In this document: in pieces, positions 28,599-63,040 of the stretch
Layout of the letters: every line of letters starts with the position of its first letter
Numbering within the stretch: position 1 is the first letter of the stretch
From: the human T2T-CHM13v2.0 reference genome, Homo sapiens
Length of the DNA: 64,000 nucleotides
Assembly (NCBI RefSeq): GCF_009914755.1
Contig: NC_060928.1
Direction: 5' to 3' (one strand)
Translations under genes and position numbers: made by a program
Notes under the pieces: generated by a model
Told to the model about the DNA's origin: nothing
The model's database searches: none
What the model saw: the letters and a program-made list of their open reading frames with translations, nothing else

Positions 28599-28899
<301 letters not shown>

Positions 28900-29814: not shown

Positions 29815-30087
29815 TTTTTTTTGAGAGGGAGTCTCACTCTGTTGCCCAGGCTGGAGTGCAGTGGCGCAATCTCAGCTCACTGCAAGCTCCGCTTCCTGGG
29901 TTCACACCATTCTCCTACCTCAGCCTCCCGACTAGATGAGACTACAGTTGCCCACCACCACGCCCAGCTAATTTTTATTTTGTATTTTTAGTAGAGACGG
30001 GGTTCCACCGTGTTAGCGAGGATGGTCTTGATCTCCTGACCTCGTGATCCGCCCGCCTGGGCCTCCCAAAATGCTGGGATTACAGGT
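29815..30087 (-). mobile_element. AluY-like inside L1
   Basis: Reverse Alu, 5'-truncated. TSD tgattctgttttc. Confidence 0.92.
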
Positions 30088-36100: not shown

Positions 36101-36388
<288 letters not shown>

Positions 36389-54064: not shown

Positions 54065-54193
<129 letters not shown>

Positions 54194-57100
54194 TTAGGAA
54201 TAAAAACACATTTAAATGTTCAAAATATAATTATCATAAACCTTTACAACCAAAATTCAGTGCCTCTCATATCTTTAGCAGGAGACCAATTTTCGAAGTT
54301 GTGTAATGTTAATAAAGCAAACCATATGGGACCCTTACTGTATACTCGCACCACTTTGTGATATTATGCAGACATTACACTTCATTCTTCCTGTGCTGCA
54401 GTTTAGTGGTTTCTTTAATATAATTAAATAAATGTTTCATAGTTTAAAACAGTTATAAATAGGGATATAAACTCTTGATACATAGATTATCTTGGATACC
54501 TTCCCCACTTAATGTACATGTTGATTAAGGAGTAAAAGTACTTTCTGAAGAATCAAATTTGTTTTACTACTTTTATTAGAGTTCACTAGGAAAAGTTTAA
54601 TTTCTTTGCAGGAGTTTGGTTTATATAAAGATTTTTAGGAAGAAAAAGACCAAATGCCCTAGATTTTGTAGAATATAAATTTTCTTAAACTAATTTTTGT
54701 CAAAATAATTCTAAATAGAGGTCTTACATATTAGTTTTAATATTGGCAATTTGGGAAGTCTATTTCTATACCTCAAAACAAATTAAGGTATCTGAAAAAT
54801 CTTAATTTAATGTTTAAATCATACTTTTCTTTTTCACACTACGGATCTGGATGTGTGGTGTCTCAGAAATTCATCTCCCCCCACTTTCTAAATCCATGTC
54901 TAAATGGGTGCAGGAGGCTAGTTTGAAACCTGTGTAGGTTAATCAAAGCCTGAGCCCAGGGAACTTCCACATACTCATGAACACCTGTTCTCTTTGTTTC
55001 CTCTGCTTCTCCCCTGTTCCAATGTGGCCAGCCCTGAGCTCTTGTAATCCTTCCTTTTCTGGTCCTTGCCTATATAGCTCTTTTGACCTGTTATATTGGT
55101 TTACACAGTCAAATTTATTCAGTATAATTATATCTTACATAATTCAGTGATAGCATGTTCTCTTTAAAAGACAGCAATAATATTAAAATCTTGACTGGAA
55201 AATCAAACCATTGTTCTTACAATGTTTACATTCTAAAAACATCTGTAAAGAGAAAGATAATTTATTTAAATAAAAAATAATTTTCTAAGCATTATTAATT
55301 TTTTTCAATTGTGATCTCCTGGAAGATTCAGCCTGGGCTTTCCATCTATTGAGAATCACAAAAACAGTTTGTTGATTTGTAAAAAATATGTGTTTATTGA
55401 ACTTCAGTCATATTTAATCTTACATCTTATATGTTTCTAGGGAATAAATAGTCAACAATTTTTCCCATATAACTATGTATCCATATATTCCTAAGATTTA
55501 GAGAAAAATGTATATAAACTAAACTATTACTTTATTCATGTTTATATATAGTGTGCATACAATTTTTCTTTTAGCACATGAAATTATTTATAATAATACA
55601 TATACACTTTAAATTACTCCAGGTTGTTTGATACATCTTATTATTTTATAAATAATTCTCAGTACTTCTATTTTAATAGATGTAATCTTTAATAGTTAAT
55701 TATCCATTATAATTCCAGAGAGCAATGCATAAAGACGGAATATTCCTGAACAGAAGCAGAAGTGGCAAGCAATAGACTCAAGTCACGTTTTATATAAAAT
55801 AAAATTTAGTAGTTGTCAGCTATTATTTATAATCATAGTTGTGTTTAAAGGAATATAAATATTACATGCACAAAAGAGAAAGCCGAAACAAAGCACATAA
55901 GTATTTATGCCAAAGCTTTTTGATTTGTATCAGCAAAGCCTCCATGTAAACATTAACATATAAATAACTATCAATTTAACATTATTGGTTTCTGAATACT
56001 GTTGTTGAAACTTATGAACATAACAAAACCATAATGTGGTGTCTGATTTTCATTTGTGTCTGTTACATACTATGTTTGATTTTTATTACTAAGCTCTTAA
56101 CATTTTTCAGTGAATATGACTACCCTTCTTTAACTTTGCCAAAATACTGTTCGAAAATTATGAATTTGAATGTGTTTGGGCCTGACAACTACTTTAAGTC
56201 CAGATTGTTTGTCATGTTTCTTGAAATATTTCCTTCCCTTACCACTATGCATACTTTTATTAGGTTGTTTTACCATATTCTACACAGAAAAGAGTCAGTG
56301 GGATTCCACTATGATTTGTTGCACTGGTGGAATTTGTGAGCTATATTTTCCACTAAATACCACTTAATCCATCCAAATTACTCTTTCAGGTTCTAGAGCA
56401 TATTTTCTTGTCTTTTAACATATGAATTACACATGAACGTTTTTACAAAGCATAAACTACTTTTCAGGTTACAAGTTACTGAAGAAATACAGATATTATT
56501 AGTCAAGATTTAGTTTTTTATTTGACTGTTTTCAATGAGAATATAAATTCTTAGTGCTTATGAAACAGTAATGCCAACAAATTACTAAATACAACTAGAT
56601 TAATTAAAATAGCGATTATAAAATAAATGCCTATATACTGGTAACTCAGCTTATGAAATAAAACTTTTCCACTACCTTTAATGGTCTCTGCGAGTCCTCC
56701 TCATTCATAAGACTAGATATTTTGCCATTTACATTTTTGCAAGGCATTATTTTCTTCCTCAAAAGTTTTATTTAGAATTTTTGCAGCAGAATTTATGATC
56801 TGAACATATGACCTGATGTGTTTCTCTTTCAATTTGCTGCTTTGATATTGTGCACATATAAATTTATTAAGATTATCCTCAGCAAAGAGGAATATAAATG
56901 ACCTGATGATGGAGATGTTGGAAACTGAAGACACAATGCACATTTTCATTGGGGACATTCATTAGCTTTATGTGTAAAAAGAAAATAATATATTTGTATA
57001 GATTTTTACTAACTACTAAATTTATATATATTATATTTTTTGACAAGTGTAGGGATGAGAAAATATGACAAAGAGGGATGATAAATTTCATTCTCTGCAT

Positions 57101-57535
57101 TCAGACAGATCAGAGGCAAATAATAGCTATAGCACTTACTCTTTTACCGTGAGAATGTTAGACAGTGTGATAATTTCCCCATATCAAATTTAAAGATAAT
57201 AATTATACTATGTCATGCAGCTGTTGTAAGATTTCAATTAGTTAGAGAATGTAAAATATTTAGCAGAGTAACTCACACACAGCAAGATTTCAAAGAAATG
57301 GTAACCTATTTATTTATGTTTTGCAGGTATCTATTCATTATAACACTACTGAAAAAAGCAAATGGTGACATGATATATAACCAGACTTTGATAACTATTC
57401 TCATTTCTCCTCAAACCCGTATATGCTAAATTTTAATTTTCTATGATATAAAATTTTAAGTTCTGTTTTCCCAGAATCCTTGAGCCAGCTAAAAGATCAA
57501 CTTTATTTTCTAGTAAAGCATTTCTTAAATTTGGC

Positions 57536-57939
57536 ATATATGCATGTGTGATACACATGTGTGTGCATAGATATAATTATGTATGATTTCAACCAATGCC
57601 ATTTATAATGAAAACAAATATTCTATTACATTATAACATTTGCCTTGCTAATTAGTGTGTGAAGTTAATAATGAAGATTTCCATTCAGTGTTTTTCAATA
57701 CACCTTTGGAAGTTAAGGAGATTGTATACTTACTCAAAAGGACTGGTTTTAGATAATATCACTCTGGCCAATATATATAGTGTTCAGATGGTACTCACTT
57801 CCTGGAATAACAGGGCCTAAAAAAGAGCTTGACACACTCACTCCCAAAAAACTTTCTAGCAAGAATGAATGGATAAGCAAGTCTTGTTCTAGTTGAACAT
57901 AATATAAAGACTTTATTGAGGTGCAATGATATGATTTTG
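57536..57939 (+). repeat. Left arm of ~404-bp inverted duplication
   Basis: Reverse complement of 59370-59775 with about 14 substitutions and one 2-bp indel (manual alignment). Confidence 0.97.
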
Positions 57940-58074
57940 GGCCAAGCCCAAACTGTTTTCCTAATACTACTAAGATGTCATTCACATTTTTTCTTGTATT
58001 ATTATTACTTTTAATGTAGGGTTTAGTTTTCAACAGGCTACATGAAGTAGAATGTTACGTGGGATATCACAATT

Positions 58075-58405
58075 CATGCAGAAGCAGATGTAAGAATCCA
58101 GCATCTTCTATTAAGCCTGAAAGCTAAAGGATTTGCAAAATGTAAACAATGTTTTACCTTTTATTTGTTTGAAAACGTAGCTTTAAAAAGATAATATGCT
58201 ATTTATGGCTCCATGTAATGGGTTTATTAGGGCTATTTTAACAAGTTAATGAATGCATATTTTAAAAATTTCTATTTCCATTTCTAATACTAAATATTAG
58301 TAGATAGAGCTACACCTCTCCCCAACCAAACACAAAGTTCTTTAAGTTCTCAATATTTAAGTTTGTAAAGGGGTCCTGAGTCTCAAAAAGTTTGAGTAGT
58401 GGTGA
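58075..58405 (+). mobile_element. hAT Charlie1-like DNA transposon 3' end
   Basis: gaagcagatgtaagaatccagc..cttctattaagcc...gatttgcaaaatgtaaacaatg...tgtaaaggggtcctgag...aaaagtttgag. Confidence 0.8.
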
Positions 58406-59369
58406 TCATTACTTCTCTCTTCATGAATGCATTGTGGTGAAGTATATTACAAACATTATTGACTTCAGTGAAAGATTCTACACTACTCTAGACATGGTAA
58501 AGATCGGGAACATGTGCAGATTGTTTTTCGTTTTTGTTTTTTTTTTTTCCTTTTTCAAGCTCTGGTGAAGGCAGGCAAAAGCGCTTAGTCTTTTTTTTGG
58601 GTTGATTGTTAATCTAACAGAGTATAGTGACTCTAGAAGTTATCCATAATTTGTTTGTTCCTTAAGAGCTTTCTTTCTGCTTTTTCTTTCTATACACAGA
58701 AAAGACATAAGCAAGAATTACTCCTGCAGTCTTACAAGACAGAAGTATTTCCCAGAGGATTTTCTAATCAATATTGTACCCTTAAATACATGAAATGGAC
58801 TGAGAAAAAAATGGATATAATGCACTTTCCTATCTCAATCCTTTGGGAATGGGAACCACTCAAGAACAGTAGTGTATTGTGAAATATAGTTATACTACTT
58901 ATTATATACAGTGGATATATACTATGTAATCTACACTAGCAATACAATTTGATTAATTTCTGATCATTGGATGCATGTTTATGTGCATCATAAAAAAGAT
59001 TTTGTGATGTTTTTCTTCCTCTGACTTAATTGTCATTAGTTTTGCATTCATATTATAGTCCATGAGAAGTTATAAGTGTATGATGTAGTGATTTGGTAGC
59101 CAATCAAAGGTTTTTCAATAAATTATGGTGTTATACAGAATCCTTCATTTGTTGATATTATCCTTTTTACTTTCAAGTGATCCTAAAAGTATGCATATTT
59201 TTGAAATATGGAAGAAATCTCCCATCTTTAGATAAAGAATAATATAGGCAAGAATAGATTGCGTTGCATTTTCTCACTGAATAACTCAGCACGGATAGAT
59301 CTTTGGTTCATGAATGTTCTCATTCACTATATCCTGACTTTGGAGATAACATTGTCTTTGTACACAGAG

Positions 59370-59775
59370 CAAAATCATACCATTGCACCTCAATAAAGTC
59401 TTTATATTAAGTTCAACTAGAACAAGACTTGCTTATCCTTTCATTCTTGCTAGAAAGTTTTTTAGGAGTGAGTGTGTCAAGCTCTTTTTTAGGCCCTGTT
59501 AATCCAGGAAGTGGGTACCGTCTGACCACTATGTATATTGGCCAGAGTGATAGTATCTAAAACCAGTCATTTTGAGTAAGTATACAATCTCCTTAACTTC
59601 CAAAGGTGTACTGAAAAACACTGAATGGAAATCTTCATTATTAACTTCACACACTAATTAGCAGGGCAAATGTTATAATGTAATAGAATATTTGTTTTCA
59701 TAATAAATGGCATTGGTTGAAATCATACATAATTATATCTATGCACACACATATGTGTATCACACATGCATATAT
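59370..59775 (-). repeat. Right arm of ~404-bp inverted duplication
   Basis: Reverse complement of 57536-57939. Confidence 0.97.
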
Positions 59776-60129
59776 ATAATTTAAGCCAATGTCATTATAT
59801 ACTTGTATGTACATGTGCACATATATAGATATCGCTACAAATGGATATCTCTTGCAAGATCAAATTTTTGATGAAAAAAATTGTAAAATGATTTAAAAAG
59901 CTTAGACTGATGTAAGTTTTTAGCAGACCAGTTAGTGAACTGGCCAGTAGAAATAACAACAGGTTGATTGTGATTTAATTTAATTGCATCACGTACTCGC
60001 CATTAGAAAGCATAGTCTTCCCCTCCCCCCAATGCCATGACTAAATCTCATGTATTCAGAAGACTTATTCTGTGAGAAGTCTTTTTCTTTTTATTTATTT
60101 TATATTATTACTTTTATAGGCCCTGTTAT

Positions 60130-60432
60130 TTCTGAGGCAGGATATTGCTCTGTCCCTCAGTTTGGACAGTGGTGTGGGTGGCATAGAGGGCAGTGGAGCG
60201 ATCACTGCAGTCTTGAGCTCCAGAGCTCAGGCGATCCTCCCACCTCAGTCTTCTGAGTAGCTGGGATTACAGGCATGAGCCATCACGCCCGGCATTTTTT
60301 TTTTTAATTTTTTGTAGAGACAGGTTTTTGCTATATTGCCTAGGCTGTTCTCAAACTCCTGGCCTCAAGCAATCCTCCCTCTTCGGCCCCCCAAATTGCT
60401 AGGATTAAAGGTATCAGCCACCACATCCTGAC
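60130..60432 (-). mobile_element. AluJ-like
   Basis: Diverged reverse Alu dimer. Confidence 0.85.
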
Positions 60433-60477
60433 CTTTTTCATTTTAAATATTATTTCAGTATTATTTTGAAGTAGTAA

Positions 60478-60630
60478 TTTTTTTAATTTTTGTTTATTTC
60501 CGTAAGTTTTTTGGGAACAGGTGGTATTTGGTTACATGATTAAGTTCTTTAGTGGCGATTTGTAAGATTTTGGTTGAACCCATCTCCTGAGCAGTATACA
60601 CTGAACCCAGTTTGTAGTCTTTTATTCTTT
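60478..60630 (-). mobile_element. L1PB-type 3' end fragment
   Basis: gggaacaggtggtatttggttacatgattaagttctttagtggcgatttgtaagattttgg...gcagtatacactg. Confidence 0.8.
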
Positions 60631-63040
60631 TCTGTAAAATAATAGTTATACCAGAGGTTTTTGAACCACACTTAGAAGCTGTATTTTCGTCTGTATTTCC
60701 GAACCTCCCTGGCAGTGTACATTTTTTGTGGGTAATGAAATTTTAAATAATTTTAGGCTGAAGAAGCTAAGCTGGCCTGTTTTTAAATCTGTTTTCCCCC
60801 AACTGGATGACATTGGAAACCTTGTATTACAGATTATGAAACTAATCATGAAGTGTAATGTAATATTAACTTTGTTGTATAATTTCACTACATTTCTATT
60901 TGTAATTTTTTTGGTTTGGTGTTAGTCAAACTAAATAGTGATTTATTTTAAATGTTTCTATAACATATTTTTGTGTGAATAGATACATAAATTTAGAAAG
61001 AATAAAAAAGGCAATTTTCCTGAATACGAAACTTTTTTTCTGCTTTTAAATTATTCACATATCATATGAAGCTGGTGTTTCCCAAAGTATGTTATGTTCT
61101 ACTCAATATTGATCCTGGAGATATTCATCAAAGTAATTCATGTGCCAATAAATTTTAAAAATCCCATTTTATATACTGAATCATCCTAAATCTCTCCTTG
61201 GAGATTGAAACTAGCATATGTAAAATTTATATAAATCCTTCAGTGAATCAAATAATTTAAGTAAGTATAATTCAGTGCTTATATAATCCAAAACATATAT
61301 TATAAACTTTGACCTCATAACATAATCTAATTGCCACAAAATAAACATTAGAAAATACTTTATTAAATTATATTTAATTATACGTATCATAAATATACTG
61401 AAAATGAAAACAAATCATACTGAATATTTTAATGTGTATGTAAAAATACATATTAGTGCATGTATATTTAAATGTATTATATCTATAATTTAATATATAG
61501 TAAAACTACTTTTCAGTAAGAATGGTTCAGGCTTGAACCTTCTAGATTGAAAGTTTCTTTAGAGCAGATATTAGATCTTATTCATCTATGAATTTCCAAT
61601 GTTTTCAATGTGTTTTAATAGGCTCTTTAAAATATTTGTCAACAAATAAGTGAGATTTTCCTCTATTAGTATTGTCATTTTATACTCCTGTAAAATTTAA
61701 AGATGAGTAGAAAGCTGAAAGTGGAGCCCAGAGAAGTAGAGGACATTGCGTTCCAAGTTTATATATTGATGAGATTGGTAAGATAATACATATTAAATTC
61801 AGTTAAATTTATTTAGATTATAAACTCTTCACTAGATTCTGATGCTCATGTTTAAAAAAATAATTTTGTAATTATTAATATAAAAATAACATAGGTTTAA
61901 CATTTATAGATGAGTTCAATGGCATTATGAGAGAAATTATCATTTCAACTCTTTCCATTATTGGCCTTAAGTGACCTACATTCTAAGGTTTTATAATTGG
62001 TTCTCTCTAAGATAGATTTTTCTTGGCTATGGTAAAGAGGTAAATATATAAATATAAAACACTGCTAGAATGAAAATAAAAGTGTATCTCAGAAATATGT
62101 AGCTCATATTTATTTTATTCTAAATTGTAAAAATGAAGAGACAATTTCCTTAGAAAATTTAGTTACCTATAATTTTAATTATTTGTATGAAATACTTATA
62201 CCCAATGATGGGGTTCAGTGATTCCTCAAGCCAGTCTATTTTCTCTGGTCACCATTATTACTATTAGTACATGAAATCATTTTTATTGTAATGCCTTGCC
62301 AATAATTGTGGCATTATAAAAATAACTTACAGAAGTCTGTGAATCAAAATCAAATGTGCTGTCTTTAATCTATTTTTAAAATGTTTCCTATTACAAGAAA
62401 CAACAAGTACTGTTATGATAACTGTATGTAGAAAAAAAGACTTTAATAATTTACCCAAAGACGCACACTTGTTTTATGTGACTTAAAGTATCTGTAAAAT
62501 GTATCATATATCTATTTTTGTCAAGCACATTTTATATGTCAAATGAAATCGTGATGCATAAGAACATTATTCTTGATGGAGAATAATTACTGAGGGTATA
62601 AATTTCCAAAAACTAACAGAATACATTTTTAAATAGAAAATAATCTGGATTTATATAATGAATTTCATCATGATTTTAATTAATCTGAAAGCTTCTATTC
62701 TATACTTTAGAGGGTGGCCTGGAGTATTGTTATTATTATGTATTAAAAATTACTACGAATTAATAATGTTCACGGTGGTTACCAAAGTTCATAGAAAGAG
62801 TTGTTCCACATACTTTAAGTTGATTTACATAGCACAGATTTGTGAGGTGAGTGCCAAATCTATTTCAAATATTGTATTGGAAGCATCTGGCTTAGCTTCC
62901 AAATTTTGTATGGCAAAGCTTCATACAAATTTTCCCAGCAATTAACCGTCAAAGCCAGATCTGTAGTACTTGGTTCAGACTTGTTAAGTGTTATTCCTTC
63001 CATTTCAATGATAAAATAAAATCAATTTTTAAAATGCTCA

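What the first reader, a model, noticed from the sequence alone, without database searches (positions are those of the whole stretch)
57536..59775. ~404-bp inverted duplication (~96% identity) flanking a 1.43-kb spacer in an FSTL5 intron
Seen: 57536-57939 is the reverse complement of 59370-59775, with about 14 substitutions and one 2-bp indel by manual count. The arms match no repeat family I recognise, and their outer ends fall in (TA)/(CA) alternating tracts. The spacer holds a Charlie1-like fossil that looks much older than the arms, so the arms are unlikely to be its TIRs. Inference: a local primate inverted duplication, or an older one homogenised by gene conversion. It could support a recurrent NAHR inversion of the spacer. 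It could also fold in the pre-mRNA into a ~400-bp non-Alu duplex, more perfect than typical Alu pairs and so a strong ADAR substrate, about 3.3 kb upstream of the 54192 acceptor.
Basis: partly seen in the sequence, partly recalled or inferred. Interest (0 to 1): 0.8.

Follow-up and report, generated by a model that had tools for sequence, protein, structure and literature searches.

The report
Old inverted duplication in FSTL5 intron
A 416-base stretch of unique intron DNA in the human FSTL5 gene was copied backwards 1.4 kb away some tens of millions of years ago; it is a real but ordinary rearrangement scar, already listed in a published catalogue of possible double-stranded RNAs, with no sign of activity there.

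Summary
Arms 57524-57939 and 59370-59785 (416 bp each, 12 bp longer than reported) are reverse complements: 398 matches, 16 substitutions and two 2-bp indels, with a 1430-bp spacer. In the whole T2T genome the arm occurs only at these two places. The same search found over 40 copies, 66-90% identical, of the old transposon in the spacer. So this is a local inverted duplication, not a dispersed repeat or transposon ends. The left arm's inner end cuts off the first ~48 positions of that hAT-type fossil. This points to the left arm as the derived copy, made by fold-back or template-switch repair with a small deletion. Divergence of 3.9% suggests roughly 17-40 Myr. Differences are evenly spread and the longest identical tract is 52 bp, so there is no sign of gene conversion and NAHR would be weak. 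In silico the FSTL5-strand RNA forms a ~400-bp duplex. The locus is already in Barak et al. 2020, Table S8, with zero read coverage and no editing value. Verdict: real, ordinary, already catalogued. Functional claims remain untested.

The parts
57524..57939 (.). Left arm of the inverted duplication (416 bp); probably the derived, inverted copy
   Evidence: Searches give the alignment to the right arm. Searches show only two places in the genome. The inner end abuts a truncated transposon. The outer purine/pyrimidine tract stops at the arm's edge.
57940..59369 (.). 1430-bp spacer, which would be the loop of a fold-back
   Evidence: Only spacer positions 11-465 match dispersed copies; the rest is unique in the genome.
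57945..58398 (+). Fossil of a ~500-bp hAT-type non-autonomous DNA transposon that lacks its first ~48 positions (the left terminal inverted repeat)
   Evidence: A profile of 499 positions built from 11 genomic copies matches here at profile positions 49-493, E=7.8e-54. Other copies carry the missing head and 8-bp target-site duplications. The head is absent from all junction-adjacent DNA. It is also absent from 55000-62000, although 3 of 3 leave-one-out controls found it.
59370..59785 (.). Right arm (416 bp); probably the source copy in its native context
   Evidence: The purine/pyrimidine-alternating tract continues beyond its outer end into the flank.
57534..57569 (.). Alternating purine/pyrimidine (TG/TA-type) tract at the left arm's outer end
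   Evidence: Strictly alternating runs of 17 nt (from 57534) and 19 nt (from 57551). Alternation is 0.79-0.87 in 40-nt windows inside the arm and 0.31-0.38 in the flank outside it.
59740..59827 (.). Alternating purine/pyrimidine tract that spans the right arm's outer boundary (59785/59786)
   Evidence: Runs of 21 nt (from 59740) and 18 nt (from 59761) lie inside the arm, and one of 24 nt (from 59804) lies outside it. Alternation is 0.74-0.95 across 59720-59839. Only sub-threshold, low-complexity Rfam microRNA matches occur here.
54074..54192 (-). Nearest downstream FSTL5 exon (reference point only); the acceptor at 54192 lies 3332 nt downstream of the repeat in the transcript
   Evidence: Hub annotation supplied with the finding; the distance is computed coordinates.

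Best explanation
This is a lineage-specific local inverted duplication, a neutral rearrangement scar. A 416-bp piece of single-copy FSTL5 intron was copied in reverse orientation 1.43 kb away. The source was most likely the right arm, 59370-59785. Proposed mechanism (inferred): a break or collapsed replication fork occurred inside the head of an old hAT transposon fossil, at what is now 57940. The freed 3' end folded back on its own strand and primed at 59370, with the 1.43-kb spacer as the loop. It copied 416 nt until it reached an alternating purine/pyrimidine tract. It was then rejoined to the other broken end at 57523, with loss of at least the first ~48 bp of the transposon. Since then the two arms have diverged independently by 3.9%, which is roughly 17-40 Myr at recalled primate substitution rates. 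When FSTL5 is transcribed the arms can pair into an imperfect ~400-bp RNA duplex, but nothing shows that this is used. Shown: the structure, its uniqueness, the truncated transposon at the left inner junction, and the in-silico duplex. Inferred: the direction of copying, the fold-back or template-switch mechanism, the age and the neutrality.
For: Structure:
- 416-bp arms with 398 matches, 16 substitutions and two 2-bp indels, and a 1430-bp spacer.
- Homology ends sharply. The outer and inner flanks score no better than shuffles (166/300, 147/300, 121/300 and 279/300 shuffles reach the observed score).

Single-copy origin:
- The left arm, the right arm and the arm core each find 2 of 2 candidates in the 3.1-Gb genome, namely self and partner.
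- The same tool finds 42 dispersed matches, 66-90% identical, for the spacer's transposon, so old repeats are detectable.
- The left flank is unique. The first 340 bp of the right flank are unique.

Direction of copying:
- The transposon profile matches 57945-58398 from profile position 49 of 499, so the copy starts within 6 bp of the arm's end.
- Other copies share a ~48-position head with the terminal repeat and 8-bp target duplications.
- That head is missing from the arm, from both outer flanks and from the other spacer end (scores 5-7 against shuffle means 6.1-6.5).
- It is also missing from 55000-62000. The best hit there has E=0.57 and is an Alu segment, whereas 3 of 3 held-out controls were found at E of 9.2e-6 or better.
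- The alternating tract continues past the right arm's outer end but stops at the left arm's.

Mechanism by analogy:
- Fold-back inverted duplications in patients had single-copy spacers of 766-70,466 bp in 21 of 21 sequenced junctions (Hermetz et al. 2014, PMC3907307, passages).
- The MMBIR model predicts an inverted segment from a switch in inverted orientation, followed by a second switch (Hastings et al. 2009, PMC2621351, passages).

No homogenisation: differences are evenly spread and the longest identical tract is 52 bp.

No transposition signature: no target-site duplication around either arm or around the whole unit.
Against: No outgroup or population sequence could be examined, so the ancestral arrangement, the direction of copying and the age are all inferred.
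- The coincidence of the transposon truncation with the arm boundary could be chance. I estimate about 5-15% from the density of repeat boundaries; this is my own rough estimate and comes from no call.
- The purine/pyrimidine argument cuts both ways. A copy ending in such a tract could have been joined next to a similar tract through microhomology.
- No microhomology can be read at the junctions without the ancestral sequence. In register there is none beyond the arms (printout).
- The deleted segment is hypothetical.
- Neutrality is assumed, not tested.
Confidence: 0.6

Rival explanations
1. Same kind of event in the opposite direction. The left arm is the source. A break at the spacer's right end (59369/59370) folded back onto 57939 and copied leftwards to the arm's alternating tract. 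The product was then joined to the right flank near another alternating tract.
For: The structure is symmetric, so fit equally well. Two similar alternating tracts, one at the arm end and one in the flank at 59804-59827, could have supplied microhomology for the final join.
Against: The transposon would then have been truncated, by an unrelated earlier event, exactly at the future arm boundary.
Confidence: 0.2
2. An inversion of the spacer made by staggered breaks, as in the model of Ranz et al. 2007 for Drosophila. One breakpoint region becomes duplicated in inverted orientation at both ends of the inverted segment.
For: The a-S-a' layout is what that model produces. PMC1885836 surfaced in the search listing; I saw only the title and the start of its abstract, and the model details are recalled.
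Against: The transposon head would then lie, inverted, just outside the right arm. It does not: the score is 5.0 against shuffles of 6.3+-1.1, and there is no profile hit. An extra deletion is therefore needed, which makes this less parsimonious.
Confidence: 0.1
3. An ancient inverted duplication, as old as the transposon, whose arms are kept similar by gene conversion and which toggles by NAHR.
For: Close inverted repeats can convert each other (general knowledge). The arms are far more alike than the spacer's transposon is to its relatives.
Against: There are no long identical tracts. The longest is 52 bp, against a simulated mean of 75 (P=0.93). Differences are not clustered (P=0.18). The homology has sharp edges with no weaker homology outside. 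No FSTL5 inversion appears in two catalogue supplements. The arms are shorter than the repeats known to drive recurrent inversions.
Confidence: 0.05
4. The two arms are the long terminal inverted repeats of a 2.26-kb DNA transposon, or two independent copies of a dispersed repeat.
For: The layout resembles a long-TIR element, and TTAA lies near both outer ends (read).
Against: There are only two places in the genome, although the search detects 66%-identical repeats. The unit has no target-site duplication: the longest word shared by the 25-bp flanks is 4 nt. The TTAA is part of the inverted homology itself.
Confidence: 0.02
5. A selected functional element: an intronic double-stranded RNA that recruits ADAR or modulates FSTL5 splicing or circular-RNA formation.
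For: The predicted duplex is very stable: -658.7 kcal/mol against -170.8+-5.2 for a shuffled partner, and 398 of 416 positions pair in the full 2262-nt fold. In mouse, two Fstl5 circular RNAs change in Adar2-knockout brain (PMC12775412, passages). This mouse result is suggestive only: no mouse sequence was compared here, so whether mouse has the repeat is unknown.
Against: Barak et al. 2020, Table S8, gives zero coverage (AEI NA on both arms, FPKM 0) in both of its GTEx RNA-seq pools. The arms' 16 mismatches show no compensatory pattern that can be assessed. There is no Rfam family above threshold.
Confidence: 0.05

Closest known systems
Long, nearly perfect 'inverted duplicated sequences' in human pre-mRNAs (Barak et al. 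2020, Genome Biol 21:26, PMC7006430)
   Same: This exact locus is one of their 197 human structures longer than 300 bp and more than 96% identical within RefSeq transcripts. Table S8 lists hg19 chr4:162424629-162425033 / 162426461-162426867, length 406, 96.3% identity. Arm length, identity, spacing and chromosome all match. I ran no liftover, and FSTL5's hg19 position is recalled.
   Different: That paper treats it only as a table row with zero expression. Its origin, its single-copy nature and the transposon truncation are not described there, as far as the passages and supplements I read show.
Fold-back inverted duplications with a single-copy spacer (Hermetz et al. 2014, PMC3907307)
   Same: Inverted copies are separated by a non-duplicated spacer of kilobase size. 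Their spacers measure 766-70,466 bp and ours is 1430 bp.
   Different: Their events duplicate megabases, form dicentric chromosomes and end in terminal deletions. Here synthesis stopped after 416 nt and the end was rejoined locally. The junction microhomology that defines their model cannot be read here without the ancestral sequence.
Replicative template switching (FoSTeS/MMBIR; Hastings et al. 2009, PMC2621351)
   Same: An inverted templated segment plus a small deletion, made by two switches, with endpoints near DNA that can form secondary structure (passages).
   Different: The 2-5 bp junction microhomology is a defining feature and could not be demonstrated.
Inverted repeats that mediate recurrent human inversions by NAHR (Giner-Delgado et al. 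2019, PMC6748972)
   Same: Inverted repeats more than 90% identical flank a short segment inside an intron.
   Different: Their repeats measure 654 bp-24.2 kb. Ours is 416 bp with no identical tract longer than 52 bp, and no orientation polymorphism is documented.
Inverted Alu pairs, the usual ADAR substrates
   Same: Intramolecular pairing of inverted copies in an intron.
   Different: The arms are single-copy, not Alu. They are longer and more alike than the window's two other inverted pairs, which are 177 nt at 85% and 165 nt at 81%.

Membership tests
Long tight inverted duplicated sequence in a pre-mRNA (Barak et al. 2020 criteria) | Arms longer than 300 bp | tested here: met
   416 bp; 406 in their table.
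Long tight inverted duplicated sequence in a pre-mRNA (Barak et al. 2020 criteria) | Identity above 96% | tested here: met
   Borderline. 96.1% over ungapped columns in T2T, 95% with gaps, 96.3% in hg19.
Long tight inverted duplicated sequence in a pre-mRNA (Barak et al. 2020 criteria) | Both arms lie within one RefSeq transcript | tested here: met
   Both arms lie in one FSTL5 intron according to the hub annotation, and the locus is listed in Table S8.
ADAR-edited double-stranded RNA | Clusters of A-to-G mismatches in RNA reads | not testable with these tools
   No RNA-seq is available here. Table S8 of Barak et al. gives AEI = NA (zero coverage) for both arms in both pools.
DNA transposon with terminal inverted repeats | Target-site duplication flanking the unit | tested here: not met
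   The longest word shared between the 25-bp outer flanks is 4 nt.
DNA transposon with terminal inverted repeats | Multiple dispersed copies | tested here: not met
   Only self and partner were found in 3 searches. A positive control with the spacer's transposon gave 42 matches.
hAT-type non-autonomous transposon (the fossil in the spacer only) | Dispersed copies with terminal inverted repeats and 8-bp target-site duplications | tested here: met
Terminal repeats and 8-bp duplications are visible in fetched copies such as L010, L005 and L014. The window copy keeps the right end only. That these features define hAT is recalled.
NAHR-competent inverted repeats | Repeat length and uninterrupted identity in the range known to recombine | tested here: not met
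   416 bp with a longest identical tract of 52 bp, against 654 bp-24.2 kb in 24 NAHR inversions. The several-hundred-bp minimal identity requirement is recalled.
NAHR-competent inverted repeats | Spacer found in both orientations among haplotypes or species | not testable with these tools
   Only one genome is held. Two catalogue supplements have no FSTL5 entry.
Fold-back / MMBIR template-switch product | Inverted templated copy separated from its source by a single-copy spacer | tested here: met
   spacer size is within the range given.
Fold-back / MMBIR template-switch product | Microhomology of 2 bp or more at the novel junctions | tested here: inconclusive
   There is none in register beyond the arms (printout). 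Any microhomology would be hidden inside the arm ends, so the ancestral sequence is needed.
Inversion by staggered breaks | Sequence once adjacent to the spacer end now lies beside the opposite arm | tested here: not met
   The transposon head is not next to 59786.

The most novel reading that the evidence does not exclude
In FSTL5-expressing neurons the intron folds into a ~400-bp non-Alu RNA duplex whose base carries alternating purine/pyrimidine runs of 17-21 nt that could adopt a Z conformation. This would make it a hyper-edited ADAR1/ADAR2 substrate. It might influence use of the exon 3.3 kb downstream or back-splicing, and it might be sensed (MDA5/ZBP1) when editing fails or the intron is retained. 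Separately, the spacer might still flip at low frequency between the arms.
Probability: 0.1. Interest if true: 0.5.

Novelty: already known. Interest (0 to 1): 0.2.

Why it matters
It matters little as it stands. The human genome holds many inverted duplications, and this one is already listed among 197 long, tight intragenic inverted pairs, with no expression detected. This analysis adds three things. The arms are single-copy DNA rather than repeats. The left junction truncates an old transposon, which gives a concrete and testable reconstruction of how the scar formed: fold-back or template-switch repair with a small deletion. The pattern of differences argues against gene conversion and against efficient NAHR. 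If brain total RNA showed heavy editing here, it would be a clean non-Alu model duplex, but there is no evidence for that now.

Tried and rejected
1. Dispersed-repeat origin of the arms. Three whole-genome searches found only self and partner. Rejected.
2. Weaker homology beyond the arms, as the sign of an older and larger duplication. Shuffle tests were negative on 100- and 300-bp flanks.
3. Looking for the missing transposon head. I checked next to each junction, across the whole window with the full profile, and in 55000-62000 with a head-only profile. Only a 12-nt match at 60344-60355 turned up (E=0.57), and it lies in an Alu.
4. Target-site duplications or poly(A) ends, which would indicate transposition or retro-copying. 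None were found (reading).
5. Rfam scan of 57000-60300. Nothing reached a gathering score. There were low-complexity microRNA-family matches in the TG/TA tract and an Alu-type SRP match.
6. Literature.
   - 'FSTL5' with 'inverted repeat' gave 1 paper, which I did not open.
   - 'FSTL5' with 'inversion' and 'polymorphic' matched 4 papers, of which 3 were listed; none concerned this locus, judging by title or abstract start.
   - 'FSTL5' with 'A-to-I' and 'editing' gave 1 paper, on mouse circular RNAs.
   - Aguado et al. 2014 has no 'chr4' or '4q32' in its main text.
7. Inversion catalogues. The supplements of PMC13721702 and PMC12229492 have no FSTL5 entry and no matching coordinate.
9. One fetched copy (L008, which covers only 58013-58170) was left out of the transposon alignment and profile. 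Non-homologous stretches of six of the 11 rows (L003, L004, L009, L011, L012, L013) were blanked before the profile was built.

Full report
Observation

The inverted repeat is real. The repeat finder reports arms 57524-57939 and 59370-59785, 416 nt each, 94% complementary without gaps, with 1430 nt between them. A gapped alignment gives 398 matches, 16 substitutions (9 transitions, 7 transversions) and two 2-bp indels, which is 96.1% identity over ungapped columns. The homology runs 12 bp further out on each side, past a second small indel. Homology stops sharply: 100- and 300-bp flanks outside and inside the arms align no better than shuffled sequence. Among inverted pairs of 150 nt or more lying within 10 kb of each other, the 64-kb window has only three. 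The other two are 177 nt at 85% and 165 nt at 81%.

What the arms are

The window's whole assembly (T2T-CHM13, 3.1 Gb) could be searched.
- The left arm, the right arm and a 340-bp core each found exactly two places, self and partner, with no further first-look candidates.
- The tool warns that it skips very common words, so I ran a control. The spacer as query returned 42 non-self matches at 66-90% identity, all within spacer positions 11-465. The search therefore does see old, diverged interspersed repeats.
- The 1.2 kb to the left of the unit is unique. To the right, repeats start only 340 bp out. They are an Alu-like element and an L1-like fragment; the naming is partly from the Rfam SRP match and partly recalled.
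- There is no target-site duplication around either arm or around the whole unit, and no poly(A) (sequence).

The arms are single-copy intron DNA duplicated locally. They are not a repeat family and not transposon termini.

The spacer and the direction of copying

I fetched 12 genomic copies of the spacer's repeat. All 12 align to the window at 62-75% identity.
- The copies share a ~500-bp unit with terminal inverted repeats and 8-bp target-site duplications. This is the hAT signature; that these features define hAT is recalled. No repeat library was available to name the family.
- A profile of 499 positions built from 11 of the copies matches window 57945-58398 at profile positions 49-493, E=7.8e-54. 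L008 was dropped as too short, and non-homologous stretches of six rows were blanked.
- The window copy therefore lacks the first ~48 positions, including the left terminal repeat. It begins within 6 bp of the left arm's inner end (57939).
- The other copies share that head with one another, so it is a true truncation.
- The head is not hidden in the arm, in either outer flank or at the other end of the spacer (scores 5-7 against shuffle means 6.1-6.5).
- A head-only profile finds nothing in 55000-62000. Its best hit (E=0.57) is a 12-nt piece of an Alu. The same kind of profile recovered the head in 3 of 3 held-out copies at E of 9.2e-6 or better.

The 57939/57940 junction is therefore a rearrangement breakpoint younger than the transposon.

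A second, weaker clue concerns the alternating purine/pyrimidine tract at the outer ends. It continues beyond the right arm into its flank, with a 24-nt strictly alternating run at 59804-59827. It stops dead at the left arm's edge.

Both clues make the left arm the derived copy. I put this at about two to one, because the tract argument can be turned round and the truncation could be a coincidence.

Mechanism (inferred)

A break or fork collapse at 57940 leaves a bottom-strand 3' end. Suppose that end folds back on its own strand, primes at 59370 and is extended to 59785. The product, read on the top strand, is exactly 'reverse complement of the right arm' placed directly left of 57940. That is the observed layout, with the spacer as the fold-back loop. 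Rejoining to 57523 with loss of the transposon head completes it.

Two published models match this outcome.
- It has the geometry of fold-back inverted duplications, in which 21 of 21 sequenced junctions had single-copy spacers of 766-70,466 bp (Hermetz et al. 2014, passages).
- It fits a double template switch in the MMBIR model (Hastings et al. 2009, passages).

The defining junction microhomology cannot be checked without the ancestral sequence. A staggered-break inversion would put the transposon head beside 59786, and it is not there.

Age and homogenisation

The proportion of differing sites is p = 16/414 = 0.039 (95% CI 0.022-0.062), and the Jukes-Cantor distance is 0.040. With recalled rates of 0.5-1.2e-9 per site per year this gives about 17-40 Myr. 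The 18 differences are evenly spread. At most 7 substitutions fall in any 68 bp (P=0.18). The longest identical tract is 52 bp against a simulated mean of 75 (P=0.93). So there is no footprint of gene conversion, and identical stretches are short for homologous recombination.

NAHR

In Giner-Delgado et al. 2019 the 24 NAHR inversions have repeats of 654 bp-24.2 kb (passages). Two inversion-catalogue supplements contain no FSTL5 entry and no matching coordinate. The preprint with 729 inversions has closed supplements, which may bear on this. Orientation polymorphism remains untested.

RNA

FSTL5 is on the minus strand, and the repeat lies 3332 nt upstream of the 54192 acceptor.
- In silico the minus-strand arms form 402 intermolecular pairs (4 of them G-U) at -658.7 kcal/mol, against -170.8+-5.2 with a shuffled partner.
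- The longest uninterrupted helix is 94 bp.
- In the minimum-energy fold of the whole 2262 nt, 398 of 416 positions of one arm pair with the other.

This is prediction only.

Prior knowledge

Barak et al. 2020 (PMC7006430; abstract, passages and supplement 1 read) list 197 human inverted duplicated sequences longer than 300 bp and more than 96% identical within RefSeq transcripts.

Table S8 contains hg19 chr4:162424629-162425033 / 162426461-162426867, length 406, identity 96.3%. AEI is NA on both arms, which means zero coverage, and FPKM is 0 in both pools: the 15-tissue GTEx pool and the muscle pool.

Chromosome, arm sizes, identity and spacing (1427 nt against 1430 nt) match this locus, and the arm is unique in the genome. 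FSTL5's hg19 position is recalled and I ran no liftover. So the feature is already catalogued as a putative long dsRNA, and the only available data show no expression and hence no editing.

A mouse study reports two Fstl5 circular RNAs altered in Adar2-knockout brain (PMC12775412, passages). It concerns mouse Fstl5, not this human repeat, and no mouse sequence was compared here.

Verdict

This is a real, single-copy, tens-of-millions-of-years-old inverted duplication. It was most likely made by fold-back or template-switch repair that clipped an old transposon. It is ordinary in kind and already listed in print, and the functional ideas remain untested.

Noticed in passing
window 60132-60430: An Alu-like element in minus orientation. 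It gives a sub-threshold Rfam Metazoa_SRP match at 60132-60293 (40.7 bits against a gathering score of 70), and the whole-genome search found 10,761 first-look candidates. A 12-nt stretch at 60344-60355 mimics the hAT terminal repeat by chance.
   Followed up: partly
window 60477-60629: A short fragment that matches many genomic copies at 87-92% identity (query positions 676-844). It looks like an L1 3' piece; that name is recalled, not tested.
   Followed up: no
window 28608-28772, 29815-29991 and 36209-36388: Two further inverted pairs (177 nt at 85% and 165 nt at 81%, 6-7 kb apart) coincide with ~300-bp masked blocks. They are presumably inverted Alu pairs in the same FSTL5 intron region (and the hub's mask list).
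   Followed up: no
window 59707-59832: The TG/TA-rich tract gives sub-threshold Rfam matches to mir-466, mir-3149, mir-4536 and mir-2002 (22-29 bits against gathering scores of 49-100). I read them as low-complexity chance matches.
   Followed up: partly
window 58535-58552: A T-rich run lies in the unique part of the spacer. The hg19 spacer in Barak et al.'s table is about 3 bp shorter than in T2T, which could reflect length variation in such a run. Not checked.
   Followed up: no
literature, mouse Fstl5: Two Fstl5 circular RNAs are differentially expressed in Adar2-knockout and Adar1/2-mutant mouse brain (PMC12775412, passages). No link to the human repeat is shown.
   Followed up: partly
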